Origin: a virus
Direction: 5' to 3' (one strand)
IMG/VR virus record: IMGVR_UViG_3300005096_000137
Location: 1 to 64,000 of that record
Length of the DNA: 64,000 nt
How positions within the stretch are numbered: the first letter of the stretch is position 1; every line of letters begins with the position of its first letter. This document shows positions 4,611-60,798 of the stretch, piece after piece. Made by a program: the position numbers and the translations under genes. The notes under the pieces were generated by a model. The model saw only the letters and a program-made list of their open reading frames with translations, did no database searches and had not been told where the DNA came from.

Positions 4611-5129
4611 ATGACTGCACCTAATCCAAACTGGAGCCGGTGGATTATTTCATCTATCGCGGAGTACTACAGTGTAAACGTCACGACCCCACTTGGTCTG
4701 CCCCTTCTCGTCGCTGGGATAGATGACCGGGACGCTGCTTTTGAGCAATCGCCCGACCGTGCGGAAGTGCGTGTCAATGGACCTTTTACTACTGAACAGA
4801 GTAAAGGCTATTGGTACATCCAAGTTGACATCAACATTCTAATCTCGTCGAACATGGGTGGGGAAGTCAAACATCGTTACACACTGGAAAATAACACTGG
4901 GAAGTTCCATGAATATGCAGACACCTGCATCCCCATATTCAGGTATGGTGATCCCACTCAGACTCCCGAGAATGATGGCACGCAGCTTGGCTATCTGTCG
5001 CCAAAGACGGGGAAGAATGACAGCGTACGAAGCCTCTACTTTGGGCAGATGAATTCGGTTGACCGAATTCGCCAGTCTCAAATTGATGCTAAGTATATCA
5101 TGTACGTATGTACCTCACTAAACAACTAA
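4611..5129 (+). CDS. Putative tail terminator/neck protein
   Basis: Size and position immediately before the major tail gene; GGAGG RBS. Confidence 0.5.
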   Translation: MTAPNPNWSRWIISSIAEYYSVNVTTPLGLPLLVAGIDDRDAAFEQSPDRAEVRVNGPFTTEQSKGYWYIQVDINILISSNMGGEVKHRYTLENNTGKFHEYADTCIPIFRYGDPTQTPENDGTQLGYLSPKTGKNDSVRSLYFGQMNSVDRIRQSQIDAKYIMYVCTSLNN

Positions 5130-5150
5130 CCCATTTTGGGAGATAGTACT

Positions 5151-6263
5151 ATCGCCAGGATCGAACTTCGGGACGCGACCATCACAATCAAAGATGGTCT
5201 TTCGGGGACAGGTCTCATCAATGAGGCCACCCCCGGCGCAACCGACACTGATGTTAACATTGACGCAGTCTCTGTTAACCGACCAAACACGTTGAAAGTA
5301 CCTGTAGGTGCCCGCTTCACAGTGGGCACTGCTGGGAACACAACGAAATACACCGTCACTGCCCGGGCACTTAGTGTCGGGATTGACGAAGTTCAAACAA
5401 TCACGGGGACGGGTGCAACGACGGGTGGTGTTGACATCACCTTAACCATTGCACCAAACCCTGCCTTACCCTCGGCAACACCTATTGTTGTTGGACCAAT
5501 CACAGTTACCTTTGATGCAGCATCAGCGGCAATCCAAACGGCAATTGATAATGCCGTAGGCGCATTACTCAACACGTATGTCGCGGGTGACATTACGGTA
5601 GCTGGTGGTGCCCTGAATACTTCACCTGTGACTCTTACCTATGATGGCAATAGTGTTACGAAAGCCAACCATAGTATACTTACTGTCGGAAGTGGTGGTT
5701 ATGATGGTACCGTTTCTGGTATTGACACCACTGAAGGTGAGTTTGCTGACCAAGTCATGAACATCACATTCTCGCCAGCTTGGGGAACCCCCACGCCAGT
5801 CGATGATGATGTCATCACCTTCCTACCCATCGAAGTCGAAGTGAAGATTGGTGATGGTAATCTAACCTACACCGAGAATGTCGAACTCGAATATGAGTTG
5901 GACCGGGGTGTCTTGGACTCCGTGAAGAAGGGTGATGAACAACCTCTCGAAGTCACAATTGACTTCATCTATGAGTTTGTCACCACGGGCACCGGCGAAG
6001 CTATCACACCTGTGGATGCCCTCAAGGGTATTCGGGGTGCGGCTGAATTCACCAGTTCGTCAACAGACGCTTGTGAACCTTTTGCTGTGGACCTTGAAAT
6101 TAACCATGATCCAGGAACCTGTGGTGGTTTGGTTGAAACCGAACTCACACTGTTCCCTGATTTCCGGTATGACTCACTTGAGTTTGACCTGGATGAAGCA
6201 GCTATTTCGACAACAGGACGTTGTAATGCAACTGAGCCAACCATCACGCGGGTTAGTCCCTAG
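5151..6263 (+). CDS. Major tail (tube) protein with inserted EVQ domain
   Basis: Position before chaperone and tape measure; followed by a terminator; GGAG RBS points to ATC 5151 (alternative TTG 5136). Confidence 0.7.
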   Translation: MARIELRDATITIKDGLSGTGLINEATPGATDTDVNIDAVSVNRPNTLKVPVGARFTVGTAGNTTKYTVTARALSVGIDEVQTITGTGATTGGVDITLTIAPNPALPSATPIVVGPITVTFDAASAAIQTAIDNAVGALLNTYVAGDITVAGGALNTSPVTLTYDGNSVTKANHSILTVGSGGYDGTVSGIDTTEGEFADQVMNITFSPAWGTPTPVDDDVITFLPIEVEVKIGDGNLTYTENVELEYELDRGVLDSVKKGDEQPLEVTIDFIYEFVTTGTGEAITPVDALKGIRGAAEFTSSSTDACEPFAVDLEINHDPGTCGGLVETELTLFPDFRYDSLEFDLDEAAISTTGRCNATEPTITRVSP

Positions 6264-10500: not shown

Positions 10501-11405
10501 AAGCTAGCCCTATCAATGATACTAGAGATGTCCTAGGCGTCGTAGCATCATCTGTAAAGGGTCTCGCGGGTACATTCATAGATTCCATCAGTGAGGTTGC
10601 TGAATTTACTGGTCTCAAGGATGAGACCGAGAAAATAGGGTCTGGTCAAGGCCGGGTGAATGCTGAACTCGTTACTCAGGGAGCCATAGATCTCGTTCAA
10701 ACGATGAGCGATATTAACGATATTGGCCCGCCGAGCGCCGAGGCATTAGCGAAGATCGTCACAGGGTTAAACTCCCTAATAGATCTTCGTAACGAGACCG
10801 TAACGAAAGCGACGTTTGGGGGAGGAAACTTGAATGCTATCCCACAAGCGGGGGCAGATGATGCGTTACAAAAGGCTATTGACGCGCTTGAGAAACTACG
10901 TGGCGGGGAAGCTACTGAGCTGATTGACCCAAATGCCCCAGCTAAAGCCGCAGCAGTTAACCAGGCACTCACCCCTATCCCTGGGACCCTGTCGGCAGCG
11001 ACTACCCAGGCAAGTGCCTTGAGAAGAGAAATCGAAGGAGCAGTTGCTGCCGCTAACAAACTCACCCTTGGTGGTGGAGGTGCAGCAGCCAATGCAGCCA
11101 TAGGTCGTTTCTTTCCTAAGTACCTAGCTGGCGGTGGATTTGCCGCCCGAGGCTCTGACAAAATTCCGGCAATGCTTTCTCCTGGTGAATTTGTTATCAA
11201 CTCCAGGAGCACCAAGAAATTCTACTCCCAACTTCAATCAATGAATGCGGGTCAGCAACCAATCTACCGTCAGGAAGGCGGACCTGTCACCAACGTTGGT
11301 GACATCAATGTATCTGTTGGAAGTGGTAAGGATGCCACCCTCACAGGTCGTACTATCGCACGGACCCTTCGTCGGGAACTGCGACGAGGATCCTCTTCAC
11401 TCTAA
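7539..11405 (+). CDS. Tape measure protein
   Basis: 1288 aa, Ala/Gln-rich helical, TP901-type core, hydrophobic segment, C-terminal SDKIPAMLSPGEFVIN. Confidence 0.93.
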   Translation: MAEEVKQIIGIDVSGAIAAVTALEKKLAGFGTKLSLLSKKMKSFNNAANKAFKFGNAGKDIDKVKRSVDALGRSASQLKALKGFKDIFKGIAPTGGGPAESLKQIPEVTAKATTALGKLSQAAKRFGTTSASSFGKATSTVQSMGKATIAALKPMTIGFQTLGRIISTQLIIRGISAIGQAFSSAVGGAIEFQLQMSEIQSISQGAFSGFEKAASDVRGISDAFNTPLGEAGEGLYQIISNQIKGAANQVDVLKQSAILAKVGVAELGSTVELVTGTINAFQLAHSDAARVSAVFFETVRLGKTRISELNQSFGQVATLASEAGVRFEELAGAFATVTVNGISTAQAQTQLKGVINALLKPTKEMTEALNKAGFASGQAALKGIGFAGVMRLLQDATGGSAAKLAKLIPRVRGLAAGMILGRNETKQLTEAIAAMDAAASDLAAQKFELRLETNAEQVQTLLNKLKNTMVVDVGQAILKVIAQFLEWTQVGEGLNNILKSLADAMPIIAVAIGSIGIAAGLALLTLVPFGAILGGIVALLASPAIALAAGIAAVGAAGAVAVIGMNVAENHAKGSFGRVVAAAEAAAAKEVAAERKLRAQIIGIREKRSRETQTIVAKAIAEERAAISELTVAYAVENDKRLKDIQTTMSGIGKLNADLLDNLKSEREGATEAAISGEKKVGTLQAQLADNQFNFANKQKSARTQALNAEKRAADLGQQAATALASARTDEQRQAANALAQRAAGFQQQAAAAAGQTKDLGLINRIQQSGVQLQQQAISATQQQVALQKKIAADIAKVEKVEQARVAKLQAGIRKVTEIADKLKFGEPGDRKKLIKDLQKATAEVRKLSKPASGSKTLGETLALEKFISDSKNFEQSQKQKGISISGTINASDFVKMEEEFVKALTAGYDRAVAAFQAAGFTIDVKLDAENLKLIQGGGAEAIGALDNLADDVTTQAEAGRTQLQAAELQKRNSEDFSATLKGLKEGQASPINDTRDVLGVVASSVKGLAGTFIDSISEVAEFTGLKDETEKIGSGQGRVNAELVTQGAIDLVQTMSDINDIGPPSAEALAKIVTGLNSLIDLRNETVTKATFGGGNLNAIPQAGADDALQKAIDALEKLRGGEATELIDPNAPAKAAAVNQALTPIPGTLSAATTQASALRREIEGAVAAANKLTLGGGGAAANAAIGRFFPKYLAGGGFAARGSDKIPAMLSPGEFVINSRSTKKFYSQLQSMNAGQQPIYRQEGGPVTNVGDINVSVGSGKDATLTGRTIARTLRRELRRGSSSL

Positions 11406-11418
11406 CTGAAAGTTAAAC

Positions 11419-12054
11419 ATGAGTGCTTCAAAACTAAATGCACGTAGTAGTGCATCTGCACAGTTGGTCCGTGCTGGCAATCGAGTCCAAGCCACGAACC
11501 TCAACCCTACTGAGCCCTCCAAGACGTCCCTCTCAGGTCGATACATTGTGCAACACTGGCGAGCTGGTCGCCGTCACAATGAATACCACTTCAACAACGG
11601 TATTGTTGATGAAGGTAAGAACAAGCTGTTGAACGTCATGTTTGATGGTGCGACTCAAATCTCGACTTGGTATCTTGGTCTCATTGACAACAGTGGCTTC
11701 ACGGCCTTGGCTGCTGGTGACACGTATGATGACATCGACCAGGCTGGCAACGGCTGGGACGAGTTCAAGAACTACACGGATGGTAACAACGCTGACAACA
11801 CGACGACTCGACCCGAGTGGGGACCTGATGCGGCGTCTGCTCAGTCAATTACCAACAGTGTGGTAAGTGTTTATAACATCACTGGCTCCGGAACCGTCAA
11901 AGGCGTCTTCGCAGCGGGTGGTGGTGCTGCCCCGAATATCAAGGGTGACCATGCAGCAGACGCTACCCTGTGGGCAACCGCTCTGTTTACGAGTGGAGAT
12001 GTCACGGTTCAGAATGGCGATCAATTGAAGGTCACCTATACCGTCAGTGCCTAA
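11419..12054 (+). CDS. Tail-associated virion protein
   Basis: N.IV.EG.N.LL...WYLGLI...GD.L.VTY pattern of tail proteins. Confidence 0.6.
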   Translation: MSASKLNARSSASAQLVRAGNRVQATNLNPTEPSKTSLSGRYIVQHWRAGRRHNEYHFNNGIVDEGKNKLLNVMFDGATQISTWYLGLIDNSGFTALAAGDTYDDIDQAGNGWDEFKNYTDGNNADNTTTRPEWGPDAASAQSITNSVVSVYNITGSGTVKGVFAAGGGAAPNIKGDHAADATLWATALFTSGDVTVQNGDQLKVTYTVSA

Positions 12055-12149
12055 CCTTTTGGTGTCCGCTGTATTTAACAGACACACTATTGCCCTCCTT
12101 GTTCAGCCCGCTGCTGGGCTCGGAGGCGGTAGATTGTGCCTTGGGTTTG

Positions 12150-12201
12150 TTGATGAACTAGTCTACCTGAAGTATAACACACGCGACTGGGGGGTTGTCA
12201 A
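12150..12201. promoter_or_regulatory. Overlapping opposed sigma70-like promoters
   Basis: + strand TTGATG-17-TATAAC (12150-12178); - strand TTGACA-19-TATACT (12201-12171). Confidence 0.45.
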
Positions 12202-12376
12202 GCAGACAACCTGTGTAAGACCTTTTCCTAGGTACGCTTTTGTACCGTTACGTCACCCCAGTAACAAGTAACCCACCCGAACAGGTGCGAGCGTAATCTC
12301 CCGCACCGGGGACCAGGTTGGCTAGGGACGGCCGCCTGCTCTCTTTTCTTACCCTGAACCCCACCCTGGAGTCCCA

Positions 12377-52956: not shown

Positions 52957-53309
52957 GGGCAGGTATCTTGGTGAGGGGAGATGATCACCCTGGGGGTTCG
53001 ATACCCTCTACTTGTTCAGTGAGTGGGTTATGGACGTGACAGGCCTGACCGCCTGGGAGGTAAGATTCCTCGCCCACTTGCATGGAGGACCCTACGAGGT
53101 GGGGACGTACATGGGTAAAAGTCCATTATGGAAGAACTACCCGCGTGCGTCGAGGTTCGTAACCTTACTCCTCCGCTTTAGTTTATCAACTGAACCGGCA
53201 CCGGATGGTGTTCCTTCGTGACTCACCCACGATAGGTTGGTAAGCGTTAATGGGCGGTCCCCGCGACAAGTCTATACGACAAACCGTCTGGGGTACGACT
53301 CCCCGCCCT
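52957..53309 (+). ncRNA. String of tRNA-like mini RNAs (52957-53018, 53021-53080, 53084-53175, 53183-53243, 53252-53309)
   Basis: Each has a closing stem; four have a 3' T-arm-like hairpin. Confidence 0.55.
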
Positions 53310-56880: not shown

Positions 56881-56957
56881 TGCCGTAGTGGTGTAAATGG
56901 CACAGCATACCAGGGCGTCCACCCTGGAGGCATGGGTTCGATTCCTGGGTGCGGCAC
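56881..56957 (+). tRNA. tRNA-like RNA, 8-nt anticodon loop (GCGTCCAC)
   Basis: TGCCGTA/TGCGGCA acceptor, GGTTCGATTCC. Confidence 0.6.
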
Positions 56958-56966
56958 TTTGAGTTT

Positions 56967-57073
56967 TGCAGCGGTGGTGTAAAAGTGATCTAGGGAGGCC
57001 TCTCTAGGTACCATAGGTGAACATTACTGGGTTAGATACCCGGAGATGGGGGTTCGACTCCCCCACGCGGCGC
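56967..57073 (+). tRNA. tRNA-like RNA (AGA) with D-loop hairpin insertion
   Basis: CTGGG-TT-AGA-TA-CCCGG; perfect T arm. Confidence 0.65.
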
Positions 57074-57082
57074 TTCGAGTTT

Positions 57083-57188
57083 TGCAGCGGTAGTGGAAAA
57101 GTGATCCCGGAAGGCCTTCTGGGGTCCCATAGGTAACATTCCAGGCCTTTTAGCCTGGCGACAGGGGTTCGAGTCCCCTACGCTGCAC
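57083..57188 (+). tRNA. tRNA-Lys-like RNA (TTT, 8-nt loop) with D-loop hairpin insertion
   Basis: TGCAGCG/CGCTGCA acceptor; tandem paralog of previous. Confidence 0.65.
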
Positions 57189-59317: not shown

Positions 59318-59419
59318 GTGTCTAATTCTGCAATAAACAGAAAGGACAAACCAATTCCACCATGGTGGGACGTTGCTGTGGGCAGCGGTACAAGTGTGAC
59401 ATTCACACTCCCCAGACAT
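59318..59419 (+). ncRNA. Four-hairpin multibranch RNA
   Basis: GTGTCT/AGACAT closing stem; TTCTG/CAGAA, TTCCAC/GTGGGA, CGTTGCT/GGCAGCG, AGTGTGA/TCACACT. Confidence 0.4.
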
Positions 59420-59494
59420 CAGGTCGGTAAGCTTAAATTGGATAAAGCACTTGGTAGCTCCAAGGTTACGGAGGTTCGAGTCCTCCCCACCTGA
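59420..59494 (+). tRNA. tRNA-like RNA, 5-nt anticodon loop (TAGCT)
   Basis: Good D and T arms; bulged acceptor. Confidence 0.6.
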
Positions 59495-59580: not shown

Positions 59581-59655
59581 CGGACAGTGGCCAAGCCTGG
59601 TTAAGGCGTCTGCCTGATACGCAGAAGACCGGTGGTTCAAATCCATCCTGTCCGA
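59581..59655 (+). tRNA. tRNA-Ile(GAT)
   Basis: TCTGC-CT-GAT-AC-GCAGA; canonical arms. Confidence 0.9.
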
Positions 59656-59660
59656 CTTAG

Positions 59661-59733: not shown

Positions 59734-59758
59734 GCCCTCAACTCTGAAAGGTAATGCA

Positions 59759-60133
59759 ATGCCAAAACTCAAGTTCAAATTCCATCCGCAGATTGTCAAA
59801 GACAAGAACGAGAAGAAAGACTTTATTGTCTACTTTGGCTCAAAGTTCTGAGGACCTTGTACTAAGATGGCTCCCCGTGTGGAAGCTATGGCAAAGACAC
59901 ATATTGTCTACAAGTTCTTGATGGAATCCAAGGATGAACCCACAAAGGCATTTATCAAAGCACTCCAGGTCCAGGGCGTACCCGTAATTCGGGTATTCAA
60001 AAACGGAACACCCATCGAGAGACGGTTCCCAGGTATTCAGGAGATAAAGGTGGTGCTGAAAGGTGTGAAAACCCGGAAGTCCCAAGAGAATTCAGACGGC
60101 TGGAATTGGCCGGACTGGTTGAAACTGTGGTAA
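59759..60133 (+). CDS. Thioredoxin with in-frame TGA (U-G-P-C): candidate selenoprotein, 124 aa
   Basis: FIVYFGSKF-TGA(59849-51)-GPC-TKMAP.VE...VQGVP....FKNG....R..G in one frame. Confidence 0.88.
59857..59894 (+). promoter_or_regulatory. Candidate bacterial SECIS hairpin
   Basis: ATGGCT-CC-ccgtgt-GG-a-AGCTAT starting 15 nt after the TGA; lower TTGT/GCAA pairing. Confidence 0.5.
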
Positions 60134-60344: not shown

Positions 60345-60716
60345 ATGACTAATCAAAGTGAGACCAATTCTATGACCAACGACGACACTCGACGCGACCT
60401 TTTTAGCCCATACCGACGTCAGTTCCTGAAAGTGAAAATCAAGTCACTCTCTGAGGAATCCCGTATCATTAGGGCGGAAGAAAAGAAGGTGGCCAACGTT
60501 TATCTAATGGGTCAATTGCATTGGCATCGTACCAACGATGTCCGTATTGAGTCCCGGGCAGCTCAACTTGCCTATGGCTACCTTCGAGGGAAGACCCTCA
60601 AGCAAGTGGAGAAATCCGCCGATCGACCCGAATGGGTGGATAAGCGGGCTATTTCCATTGTAAAGAAGTTTGGCCGCCTTGAAGCCCGTGAGGGTTTTGT
60701 GGAGTGGCTTAAATAA
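60345..60716 (+). CDS. Conserved phage protein (LKVKIKSL..E.RIIR..HR..LAYG.LRG)
   Basis: Motif-rich basic helical protein. Confidence 0.75.
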   Translation: MTNQSETNSMTNDDTRRDLFSPYRRQFLKVKIKSLSEESRIIRAEEKKVANVYLMGQLHWHRTNDVRIESRAAQLAYGYLRGKTLKQVEKSADRPEWVDKRAISIVKKFGRLEAREGFVEWLK

Positions 60717-60726
60717 CCTGAAGACC

Positions 60727-60798
60727 GCGCGAGAGGCAACATGGTGTTGCGGCGGGCTTTCAATCCCGTTCTGGTGGGTTCGATCCCCATCTCGCGGT
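60727..60798 (+). tRNA. tRNA with 8-nt loop CTTTCAAT (Glu TTC or TCA register)
   Basis: GCGGG/CCCGT stem; 5-6 bp D stem; GTGGG-TTCGATC-CCCAT. Confidence 0.7.

What the first reader, a model, noticed from the sequence alone, without database searches (positions are those of the whole stretch)
59759..60133. Candidate phage-encoded selenoprotein: thioredoxin with U-G-P-C
Seen: the ORFs ending at 59851 and starting at 59867 are in frame. TTC-TGA-GGA-CCT-TGT puts TGA exactly at the attacking Cys of the (W)CGPC motif, between the FIVYF strand and the KMAP helix, with the GVP cis-Pro loop and FKNG downstream. A bulged hairpin with a G-containing loop starts 15 nt after the TGA. TGA is an ordinary stop elsewhere, so recoding would be site-specific. 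Known: UxxC Trx-fold selenoproteins and 3'-adjacent SECIS/SelB decoding exist in bacteria. Inference: the phage uses host Sec machinery; to my knowledge phage selenoproteins are little described.
Basis: partly seen in the sequence, partly recalled or inferred. Interest (0 to 1): 0.95.

Follow-up and report, generated by a model that had tools for sequence, protein, structure and literature searches.

The report
Phage thioredoxin-like gene with conserved recoded TGA
A small thioredoxin-fold gene of a large uncultured phage has a TGA "stop" exactly at its catalytic cysteine position, and all eight diverged phage relatives with DNA in hand keep that TGA, so it is most likely a phage-encoded selenocysteine protein, a kind I could not find reported.

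Summary
Window 59759-60133 (+) is one 124-codon thioredoxin-fold gene, interrupted only by TGA at 59849-59851. That TGA is the first position of a U-G-P-C motif.

The decisive evidence is comparative:
- About 24 metagenomic protein clusters form a specific family (41-50% identity).
- Gene callers start all but one of them at the Met just after the motif.
- For all 8 distinct relatives with retrievable DNA, the upstream frame is open and conserved. The interrupting codon is TGA in 9 of 9, while the terminal stop is TAA in 8 of 9.
- Neighbouring invariant Tyr, Phe and Cys codons vary synonymously.
- Both sides of the TGA are under purifying selection.
- A distant phage homolog has Cys (C-W-A-C) at the TGA column. 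One family member has lost both redox residues (His and Asn).

Other points:
- A small hairpin over the M-x-x-R-V-x-x codons is more stable than synonymous recodings in the family, but not in the window copy alone.
- The phage has no selA, selB, selD or true tRNA-Sec, and the host is unknown.
- An odd tRNA that can be read as UCA lies 600 nt downstream. It forms an independent module with an unknown ORF and is a weaker rival decoder.

Verdict: programmed UGA recoding is nearly certain, and selenocysteine is the most likely residue (about 0.55). This scan noted a similar phage case before, on other DNA.

The parts
59746..59751 (+). Shine-Dalgarno-like GAAAGG, 7 nt before the ATG at 59759
   Evidence: Read from the sequence. 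Relatives have GGAGG, AAGGA or GAGGA before their own start codon (MHP... N-terminus), and no such site before the internal Met.
59759..60133 (+). Complete thioredoxin-fold gene: 124 codons including one in-frame TGA, with terminal TAA at 60131-60133
   Evidence: Purifying selection acts on both sides of the TGA: pN/pS 0.28 before it and 0.45 after it, with pS saturated at 0.8-0.9.
59849..59851 (+). In-frame TGA at the attacking-Cys column (candidate Sec codon, U31)
   Evidence: TGA stands at this alignment column in the window and in 8 distinct relatives: L001, L003, L004, L005, L007, L010, L011 and L013. It is never TAA, TAG or a Cys codon.
59858..59860 (+). TGT, the resolving Cys of U-G-P-C
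   Evidence: This column is invariant Cys, written TGT five times and TGC four times across the family. The one family member without the TGA (P0176) has Asn here and His at the TGA column.
59867..59889 (+). Hairpin over codons M-A-P-R-V-E-A-M: 8 bp, one bulged A, loop CCGUGU. Candidate SECIS-like element, 15 nt after the TGA.
   Evidence: A hairpin at the homologous codons is present in all 9 sequences. Mean z is -1.72 against synonymous recodings, compared with 0.03 +/- 1.2 in 45 control windows. This copy alone scores z -0.38.
59581..59656 (+). tRNA-Ile(GAU) directly upstream. The gene lies inside the phage tRNA cluster.
   Evidence: The same tRNA-Ile precedes the gene in L003, L005, L010, L011 and L013.
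60345..60716 (+). ORF-X, 123 aa, unknown function. It is always directly 5' of the odd tRNA. Context only, possibly unrelated to the finding.
   Evidence: It is 56-57% identical to L001 717-1037, L010 9130-9453 and L013 3213-3632. No Pfam or PHROG match.
60727..60798 (+). Irregular tRNA gene: 8-bp acceptor with a 4-bp T stem, 5-bp D stem, 8-nt anticodon loop CUUUCAAU (UCA or UUC), short variable loop, U73. Possible rival decoder of the UGA.
   Evidence: Rfam tRNA-Sec 33.5 bits, below the gathering score of 47. Found by relaxed ARAGORN only. The cloverleaf has 6 compensatory pairs among 4 orthologs. Model R1 finds it in L001, L010, L013, L029, L032 and L034.

Best explanation
The gene encodes a small cytoplasmic thioredoxin-fold oxidoreductase whose attacking residue is selenocysteine (U-G-P-C here, U-x4-C in most relatives). 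The ribosome reads UGA 59849-59851 as a sense codon at this one site. The most likely route uses the infected host's Sec machinery (tRNA-Sec, SelA, SelD, SelB). SelB would be recruited by the short hairpin that begins 15 nt after the UGA and whose G/U-containing loop starts 23 nt after it. Shown: the gene is a single gene, the TGA is conserved under selection, and it lies at the redox position. Inferred: that the residue is Sec, that SelB and the hairpin mediate insertion, and that the host can make Sec.
For: (1) The TGA lies at the first Cys of the CxxC motif in a confident thioredoxin fold.
(2) The family is specific. 23 of 24 protein clusters are called from the Met three residues after the resolving Cys, which means each has a stop upstream.
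(3) In all 8 distinct relatives with DNA, the upstream frame is open from its own start codon and ribosome-binding site, and it is conserved (MHPxIK..KKNxIxYFGT). The interrupting codon is TGA in 9 of 9 sequences, while the true stop is TAA in 8 of 9.
(4) Synonymous sites are saturated (pS 0.8-0.9). The invariant Tyr, Phe and Cys codons nearby toggle 5:4, yet the TGA never becomes TGT or TGC. This is expected if no other codon can specify the residue.
(5) There is a Sec/Cys pair: the distant phage homolog P0007 has C-W-A-C aligned on U-G-P-C.
(6) P0176, the only family member without the TGA, has lost both partners (His and Asn). This fits a U...C redox pair.
(7) A local hairpin with a G/U-containing loop follows the UGA in every member. 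Its loop starts 23 nt after the UGA in the window and about 26-30 nt after it in the relatives. It is more stable than the protein sequence requires, and 4 of its 6 pairs show double changes.
(8) TGA is otherwise the commonest stop of the phage, so the recoding is site-specific.
Against: - No selenium chemistry can be seen in sequence.
- The host is unknown, so whether selABCD is available is untested.
- The phage encodes none of selA, selB, selD or a true tRNA-Sec.
- The hairpin is short, it is not in one register in all members (classes with loops CGUGU, GGUCG and GGUC), and RNAalifold finds no consensus.
- Folding energy of the 72 nt after the TGA is not better than in control regions.
- In the window copy the hairpin is at chance level.
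- The U-x4-C spacing of most relatives is unusual for thioredoxin-fold redox motifs.
- A tRNA that may read UGA lies nearby in 4 of 7 informative contigs.
Confidence: 0.55

Rival explanations
1. The UGA is decoded by the phage's own irregular tRNA (60727-60798) read as anticodon UCA. Host CysRS would charge it (U73, C35, A36), as for the selC*-type 8/4 tRNA-Cys(UCA) of deltaproteobacteria. The product would then be an ordinary Cys-x-x-Cys thioredoxin whose synthesis depends on the phage tRNA. In a combined form, the tRNA would be a Cys back-up for a Sec codon.
For: The tRNA is real and conserved: 6 compensatory pairs, with all four helices kept. It has an 8-bp acceptor and a 4-bp T stem, a long D stem with a small loop, U73 in 6 of 7 copies, and a loop containing UCA. 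It lies 0.3-0.9 kb downstream of the TGA gene in the window, L001, L010 and L013. Mukai et al. (PMC5389517) showed that 8/4 tRNA-Cys(UCA) can insert Cys at UGA.
Against: - The tRNA and ORF-X are missing from the syntenic place and from the rest of the contig in L005, L007 and L011, which keep the TGA.
- The same tRNA/ORF-X module occurs in three other viral records that show no member of the thioredoxin family, though these records are only 43-68% complete.
- The L013 copy has loop CUUCUAAU (UCU or CUA) while its thioredoxin keeps TGA.
- The 8-nt loop can equally be read as UUC (Glu).
- There is no cysS*/selB*-like gene in the phage.
- If Cys were inserted, nothing explains why TGA never drifted to TGT or TGC over saturated divergence.
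- A general opal suppressor would also read through the phage's commonest stop codon.
Confidence: 0.17
2. The UGA is a leaky or regulatory stop. Most ribosomes terminate after a 30-residue peptide. Occasional near-cognate readthrough (Trp, Cys or Arg), or re-initiation at the ATG 15 nt downstream, makes small amounts of a C-terminal product.
For: UGA is the leakiest stop. An ATG follows within 6 codons in every member. Gene callers do call the 88-aa product.
Against: The 88-aa product lacks the first beta strand and the whole redox motif of the fold. There is no ribosome-binding site before the internal ATG. The N-terminal 20-30 codons are under purifying selection. Trp or Arg at the attacking position would give an inactive enzyme. 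The paired loss of both redox residues in P0176 argues that the column is functional.
Confidence: 0.1
3. The gene is a pseudogene, or the TGA is an assembly error in this genome.
For: A single TGT/TGC to TGA transversion would create it. I could not look at reads.
Against: The same TGA appears in 8 independent assemblies from different samples and sources (Logan, ENA, JGI). There are no other lesions, and selection acts on both sides.
Confidence: 0.03

Closest known systems
Bacterial thioredoxin-fold selenoproteins with a UxxC motif (Sec-containing Trx, Grx-like, Prx-like and DsbA-like families found by Sec/Cys homology searches). Recalled from the Zhang and Gladyshev surveys; the criteria are as restated in PMC12013277.
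   Same: The TGA is at the attacking Cys of the CxxC motif of a thioredoxin fold. A Cys-containing homolog exists. The flanks are conserved. A small stem-loop lies directly 3' of the UGA. Gene callers split the gene.
   Different: It is encoded by a phage (148 kb, inside its tRNA cluster) that has no Sec machinery of its own. It forms a sequence family of its own (MHPxIK N-terminus, GVKT...PDWLKLW C-terminus). The word-index searches found no close relatives outside the family; beyond it, the exhaustive HMMER search gave only generic thioredoxin-fold hits of about 25-40% identity. Most members have U-x4-C rather than U-x2-C.
Selenoproteins of eukaryotic viruses (for example the glutathione peroxidase homologs of molluscum contagiosum and fowlpox viruses). 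From my own knowledge; reviewed in PMC8310308, listed.
   Same: A virus carries a Sec-UGA gene and depends on host Sec machinery.
   Different: Those use a eukaryotic 3'-UTR SECIS and a GPx fold. Here the setting is bacterial, with a hairpin inside the coding sequence.
selC*-type (8/4) tRNA-Cys(UCA) and allo-tRNAs (Mukai et al. 2017, PMC5389517)
   Same: The neighbouring tRNA has an 8-bp acceptor with a 4-bp T stem, mostly U73, and a possible UCA anticodon. The paper also notes 8/4 tRNAs in phage tRNA clusters.
   Different: It has an 8-nt anticodon loop and no adjacent selB* or cysS*. It occurs without the TGA gene, and the TGA gene occurs without it.
Stop-codon-reassigned phages (TGA to Trp, TAG to Gln) with suppressor tRNAs
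   Same: An in-frame stop codon in a phage gene, with a nearby tRNA that may read it.
   Different: Here only one site in the genome is affected, and TGA remains the commonest terminator.

Membership tests
Thioredoxin fold (Pfam PF00085) | Profile match above the curated cut-off | tested here: met
   44 bits against a cut-off of 23.5, E 2.4e-11, residues 11-92.
Thioredoxin fold (Pfam PF00085) | Beta-alpha-beta core with the redox motif at the N-cap of helix 1, and a cis-Pro loop | tested here: met
   AlphaFold model, pLDDT 84.9: strand 22-27, U31-G-P-C34, helix 32-47. P75 is invariant. Best PDB matches are thioredoxins at Foldseek probability 1.00, TM 0.6-0.7.
Bacterial-type selenoprotein gene | In-frame UGA conserved at one column among diverged homologs | tested here: met
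   TGA in 9 of 9 distinct sequences at 41-50% protein identity.
Bacterial-type selenoprotein gene | Cys-containing homolog aligned at the UGA column | tested here: met
   P0007 (109 aa, 39% identity, phage-like contig) has C-W-A-C on U-G-P-C. Only this one distant example was found. Within the close family, no member has Cys there.
Bacterial-type selenoprotein gene | Coding conservation on both sides of the UGA | tested here: met
   pN/pS 0.28 upstream and 0.45 downstream, with saturated pS. No other stops or frameshifts.
Bacterial-type selenoprotein gene | SECIS stem-loop immediately 3' of the UGA with a G/U-containing apical loop | tested here: inconclusive
   A hairpin is present in all 9 sequences, with the loop starting 23-30 nt after the UGA. 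Family mean z is -1.72 against synonymous recoding, and 4 of 6 pairs show double changes. But the register is not shared by all, there is no RNAalifold consensus, and the window copy is at chance. bSECISearch was not available.
Bacterial-type selenoprotein gene | selA, selB, selC and selD available in the translating cell | not testable with these tools
   The host is unknown. The phage itself has none of them.
Bacterial-type selenoprotein gene | Selenium in the protein | not testable with these tools
   Needs 75Se labelling or mass spectrometry.
tRNA-Sec (Rfam RF01852), for the tRNA at 60727-60798 | Score above the gathering threshold; long variable arm for SerRS | tested here: not met
   33.5 bits against 47. 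The variable region is 4-5 nt.
selC*-type 8/4 tRNA-Cys(UCA) | 8-bp acceptor plus 4-bp T stem, and U73 | tested here: met
   Covariation supports the 8-bp acceptor and the 4-bp T stem. U73 is present in 6 of 7 copies; L029 has G73.
selC*-type 8/4 tRNA-Cys(UCA) | UCA anticodon in a 7-nt loop; partner selB*/cysS* genes | tested here: not met
   The loop has 8 nt (CUUUCAAU) and can be read as UUC or UCA. L013 has CUUCUAAU. The phage has no EF-Tu-like or CysRS gene.
Genome-wide TGA reassignment (codes 4 or 25) | Many genes with in-frame TGA, and TGA rarely used as a terminator | tested here: not met
   TGA ends 89 of 197 long ORFs. No other convincing in-frame TGA junction was found.

The most novel reading that the evidence does not exclude
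A family of large phages encodes a true selenoprotein and also carries a conserved, irregular 8/4 tRNA with an expanded UCA-containing anticodon loop, together with a dedicated small protein (ORF-X). These would help decode that UGA, either as a phage-supplied Cys back-up when selenium or host Sec machinery is lacking, or as a new SelB-independent route of site-specific UGA recoding.
Probability: 0.12. Interest if true: 0.92.

Novelty: new variant of a known kind. Interest (0 to 1): 0.72.

Why it matters
Selenoproteins are known from bacteria, archaea, eukaryotes and a few eukaryotic viruses. In four full-text searches I found no report of a bacteriophage-encoded selenoprotein.

If confirmed, the finding would show three things:
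- Phages can exploit the host's selenocysteine machinery for an auxiliary redox enzyme.
- Such a gene gives a marker for host range, because only Sec-competent hosts could express it.
- Phage annotation pipelines systematically cut such genes. All 23 TGA-bearing family clusters in a 5.8-billion-protein collection are truncated at the TGA.

The U-x4-C spacing and the nearby irregular tRNA/ORF-X module are also directly testable questions about recoding in phages.

Tried and rejected
- Close relatives by word-index search of the single protein: only the window's own fragment was found.
- The search for related loci with the protein or family alignment in viral, metagenome and genome contigs: no family member.
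- Megablast of the locus against isolated phages: no match.
- tblastn of the primase and of the SNF2 helicase against isolated phages: only matches of 22-28% identity, so no host could be inferred.
- Rfam around the gene: no cis-element match.
- Whole-region folding energy after the TGA against synonymous recodings: not better than control regions. RNAalifold: no consensus.
- Search for further in-frame TGA genes in the phage: the other candidates look like adjacent genes.
- Pattern scan for the tRNA in bacterial genomes: the 17-base pattern was too short for 596 Gb. About 70 chance hits were expected. None of the 80 loci scanned held the tRNA under model R1, so this scan says nothing about the host.
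- Sample accession numbers were not found in the paper library.
- ORF-X: no Pfam, PHROG or Atlas lead.
- Pseudogene, code-4 and frameshift readings were rejected, as set out under the rival explanations.

Full report
**What is in the window**

Between tRNA-Ile(GAU) (59581-59656) and a 123-codon unknown ORF (60345-60716) lie two in-frame ORFs. They are separated by a single TGA at 59849-59851.

Read through, 59759-60133 gives 124 residues. They run: MPKLKFKF-HPQIV..., strand DFIVYF, G-S-K-F-U-G-P-C-T-K-M-A-P, and further on G-V-P, F-K-N-G and a Trp-rich tail. A GAAAGG sits 7 nt before the ATG.

- Pfam Thioredoxin matches at 44 bits, against a cut-off of 23.5.
- PDB thioredoxins and protein disulfide isomerases align their W-C-G-x-C on F-U-G-P-C.
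- An AlphaFold model (pLDDT 84.9) has strand 22-27 leading into U31 at the N-cap of helix 32-47. Its best structural matches are thioredoxins.
- The 88-residue product that gene callers report (P0002) would therefore lack a core strand and the whole active site.

**The genome**

The genome is a single 148,427-bp virus record with 50% G+C and 12 standard tRNAs, none of them Sec. TGA is its commonest terminator, ending 89 of 197 long ORFs. I found no other convincing in-frame TGA junction. A changed genetic code is therefore excluded.

**The comparative test**

An exhaustive HMMER search returned, among ordinary thioredoxins, a set of 78-93-residue proteins. They match only residues 37-124 of the query and all begin at the Met just after the motif. 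Profile searches raised this set to 23 clusters.

For every member whose DNA could be fetched, I translated upstream. This covered 8 distinct sequences from Logan, ENA and JGI assemblies: L001 (=L002), L003, L004, L005 (=L006), L007, L010, L011 (=L012) and L013. In every case:

- The frame stays open back to its own start codon and ribosome-binding site.
- It encodes a conserved N-terminus (M-H-P-x-I-K ... K-K-N-x-I-x-Y-F-G-T-R/K-x).
- It is interrupted by exactly one codon, TGA, at the same column as in the window.

The genes end with TAA in 8 of 9 sequences. Synonymous sites are saturated (pS 0.8-0.9) while pN is 0.25-0.36 on both sides of the TGA. The invariant Tyr, Phe and Cys codons around it are split 5:4 between their two synonyms, yet the TGA never varies.

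A distant homolog on a phage-like 16.7-kb contig (P0007, 39% identity) has C-W-A-C on U-G-P-C. The only family member without the stop (P0176) has His at the TGA column and Asn at the partner Cys column. The two redox positions were thus lost together.

These results rule out a pseudogene or an assembly error. They establish programmed decoding of this UGA at the attacking position of a redox pair.

One unexpected feature is the spacing. The window has the classical U-x2-C, but the eight relatives have U-x4-C (for example U-K-S-R-A-C).

**Which residue is inserted**

The standard criteria for a selenoprotein gene are a conserved UGA, a Sec/Cys pair, conserved flanks and a stem-loop directly downstream (restated in PMC12013277). 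Three of these are met.

The fourth, the stem-loop, is only moderately met:
- All nine sequences can form a 4-8-bp hairpin over the codons M-x-x-R-V-x-x, with G/U-containing loops (CCGUGU, CGUGU, GGG, GGUCG, GGUC). The loop starts 23 nt after the UGA in the window and about 26-30 nt after it in the relatives.
- These hairpins are more stable than synonymous recodings of the same peptides. Mean z is -1.72, against 0.03 +/- 1.2 in 45 control windows.
- In a fixed register, 4 of 6 pairs show compensatory changes and few shuffles do as well.
- Against this, three sequences use a shifted register, RNAalifold finds no consensus and the wider 72-nt region is unremarkable.
- The window's own hairpin is not better than chance.

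The strongest argument for Sec rather than a standard amino acid is evolutionary. Over saturated divergence, a codon that merely gave Cys through suppression should have drifted to TGT or TGC. It never did.

Against Sec: the phage has no selA, selB, selD, EF-Tu-like or CysRS gene and no true tRNA-Sec. Everything therefore depends on a host I could not identify.

**The nearby tRNA**

Rfam's tRNA-Sec model gives a sub-threshold hit (33.5 bits, gathering score 47) at 60729-60795, which standard ARAGORN misses. The gene spans 60727-60798.

It is a real, conserved, irregular tRNA with these features:
- an 8-bp acceptor and a 4-bp T stem;
- a 5-bp D stem with a 5-nt loop;
- a short variable loop and U73;
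- an 8-nt anticodon loop, CUUUCAAU.

Six compensatory pairs among four orthologs support the cloverleaf. The window copy has a G.G mismatch at the top of the acceptor stem.

The shape recalls the selC*-type 8/4 tRNA-Cys(UCA) of Mukai et al. (PMC5389517), which can insert Cys at UGA. That makes it a serious rival decoder. The link is weak, however:
- The tRNA always travels with an unknown ORF (ORF-X, 56-57% identical).
- The pair is missing from L005, L007 and L011, which keep the TGA.
- The same pair occurs in three other viral records that show no thioredoxin of this family.
- The L013 copy has a different loop (CUUCUAAU) although its thioredoxin keeps TGA.
- The 8-nt loop can also be read as UUC (Glu).

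I therefore treat the tRNA/ORF-X pair as a separate module of the phage tRNA cluster. I give it about one chance in six of being the decoder.

**Comparison with what is known, and novelty**

The gene works like the known bacterial UxxC thioredoxin-fold selenoproteins. It passes the sequence-level membership tests, apart from a clear SECIS and a known Sec-competent host.

What is new:
- The carrier is a large phage, with the gene inside its tRNA cluster and syntenic with SET-domain and SNF2-helicase genes in relatives.
- The family itself is unannotated and universally truncated in databases.
- Most members have the U-x4-C variant.

Four literature searches found no phage-encoded selenoprotein. 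Absence from that library is not proof.

This scan has noted a similar candidate before, in a different phage and a different family (e1-3445121). A sequence look-up with the relative P0157 (L001) found no look-alike among earlier findings.

**Verdict**

Programmed UGA recoding at the catalytic position has probability about 0.9. Selenocysteine through host machinery is the best explanation (0.55). Decoding by the phage's irregular tRNA comes second (0.17). Leaky or regulatory termination (0.10) and a pseudogene or error (0.03) are unlikely.

Noticed in passing
window 60345-60798; also L001 717-1119, L010 9130-9536, L013 3213-3714, L029 ~4900-5279, L032 ~11561-12300 (-), L034 ~10760-11244 (-): A conserved two-part module: an unknown ~106-aa helical ORF (motifs FLKVKIKSLAEE, HRTWDVR, IVKKFG) followed within about 10 nt by an irregular 8/4 tRNA with an invariant 8-nt anticodon loop, CUUUCAAU. 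It is found in at least seven phage contigs, with or without the TGA thioredoxin. Function unknown.
   Followed up: partly
L013 3641-3714: The ortholog of the irregular tRNA has loop CUUCUAAU (readable as UCU or CUA) on the same body. The anticodon of this tRNA family therefore varies between phages.
   Followed up: no
protein P0176 (ENA, 41-kb contig; no DNA fetched): A full-length member of the thioredoxin family with His at the Sec column and Asn at the partner Cys column. Probably a redox-dead derivative.
   Followed up: partly
window 59419-59494: A weak tRNA-like match (Rfam tRNA 25 bits, below threshold) just upstream of tRNA-Ile. Several more sub-threshold tRNA-like hits lie at 52957-53017 and 56881-57187. 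The phage tRNA region seems rich in degenerate or irregular tRNAs.
   Followed up: no
L005 5176-9141: In a related phage, the SNF2-type helicase downstream of the thioredoxin carries an intein with a LAGLIDADG endonuclease (precomputed Pfam hits). A SET-domain gene precedes the helicase in L005, L007, L010 and L013.
   Followed up: no
G000 end (about 148330-148427): The genome record ends in tandem copies of a ~21-nt unit (CCATCCAATCCGGACAGT...), seen when printing the last 100 bases.
   Followed up: no
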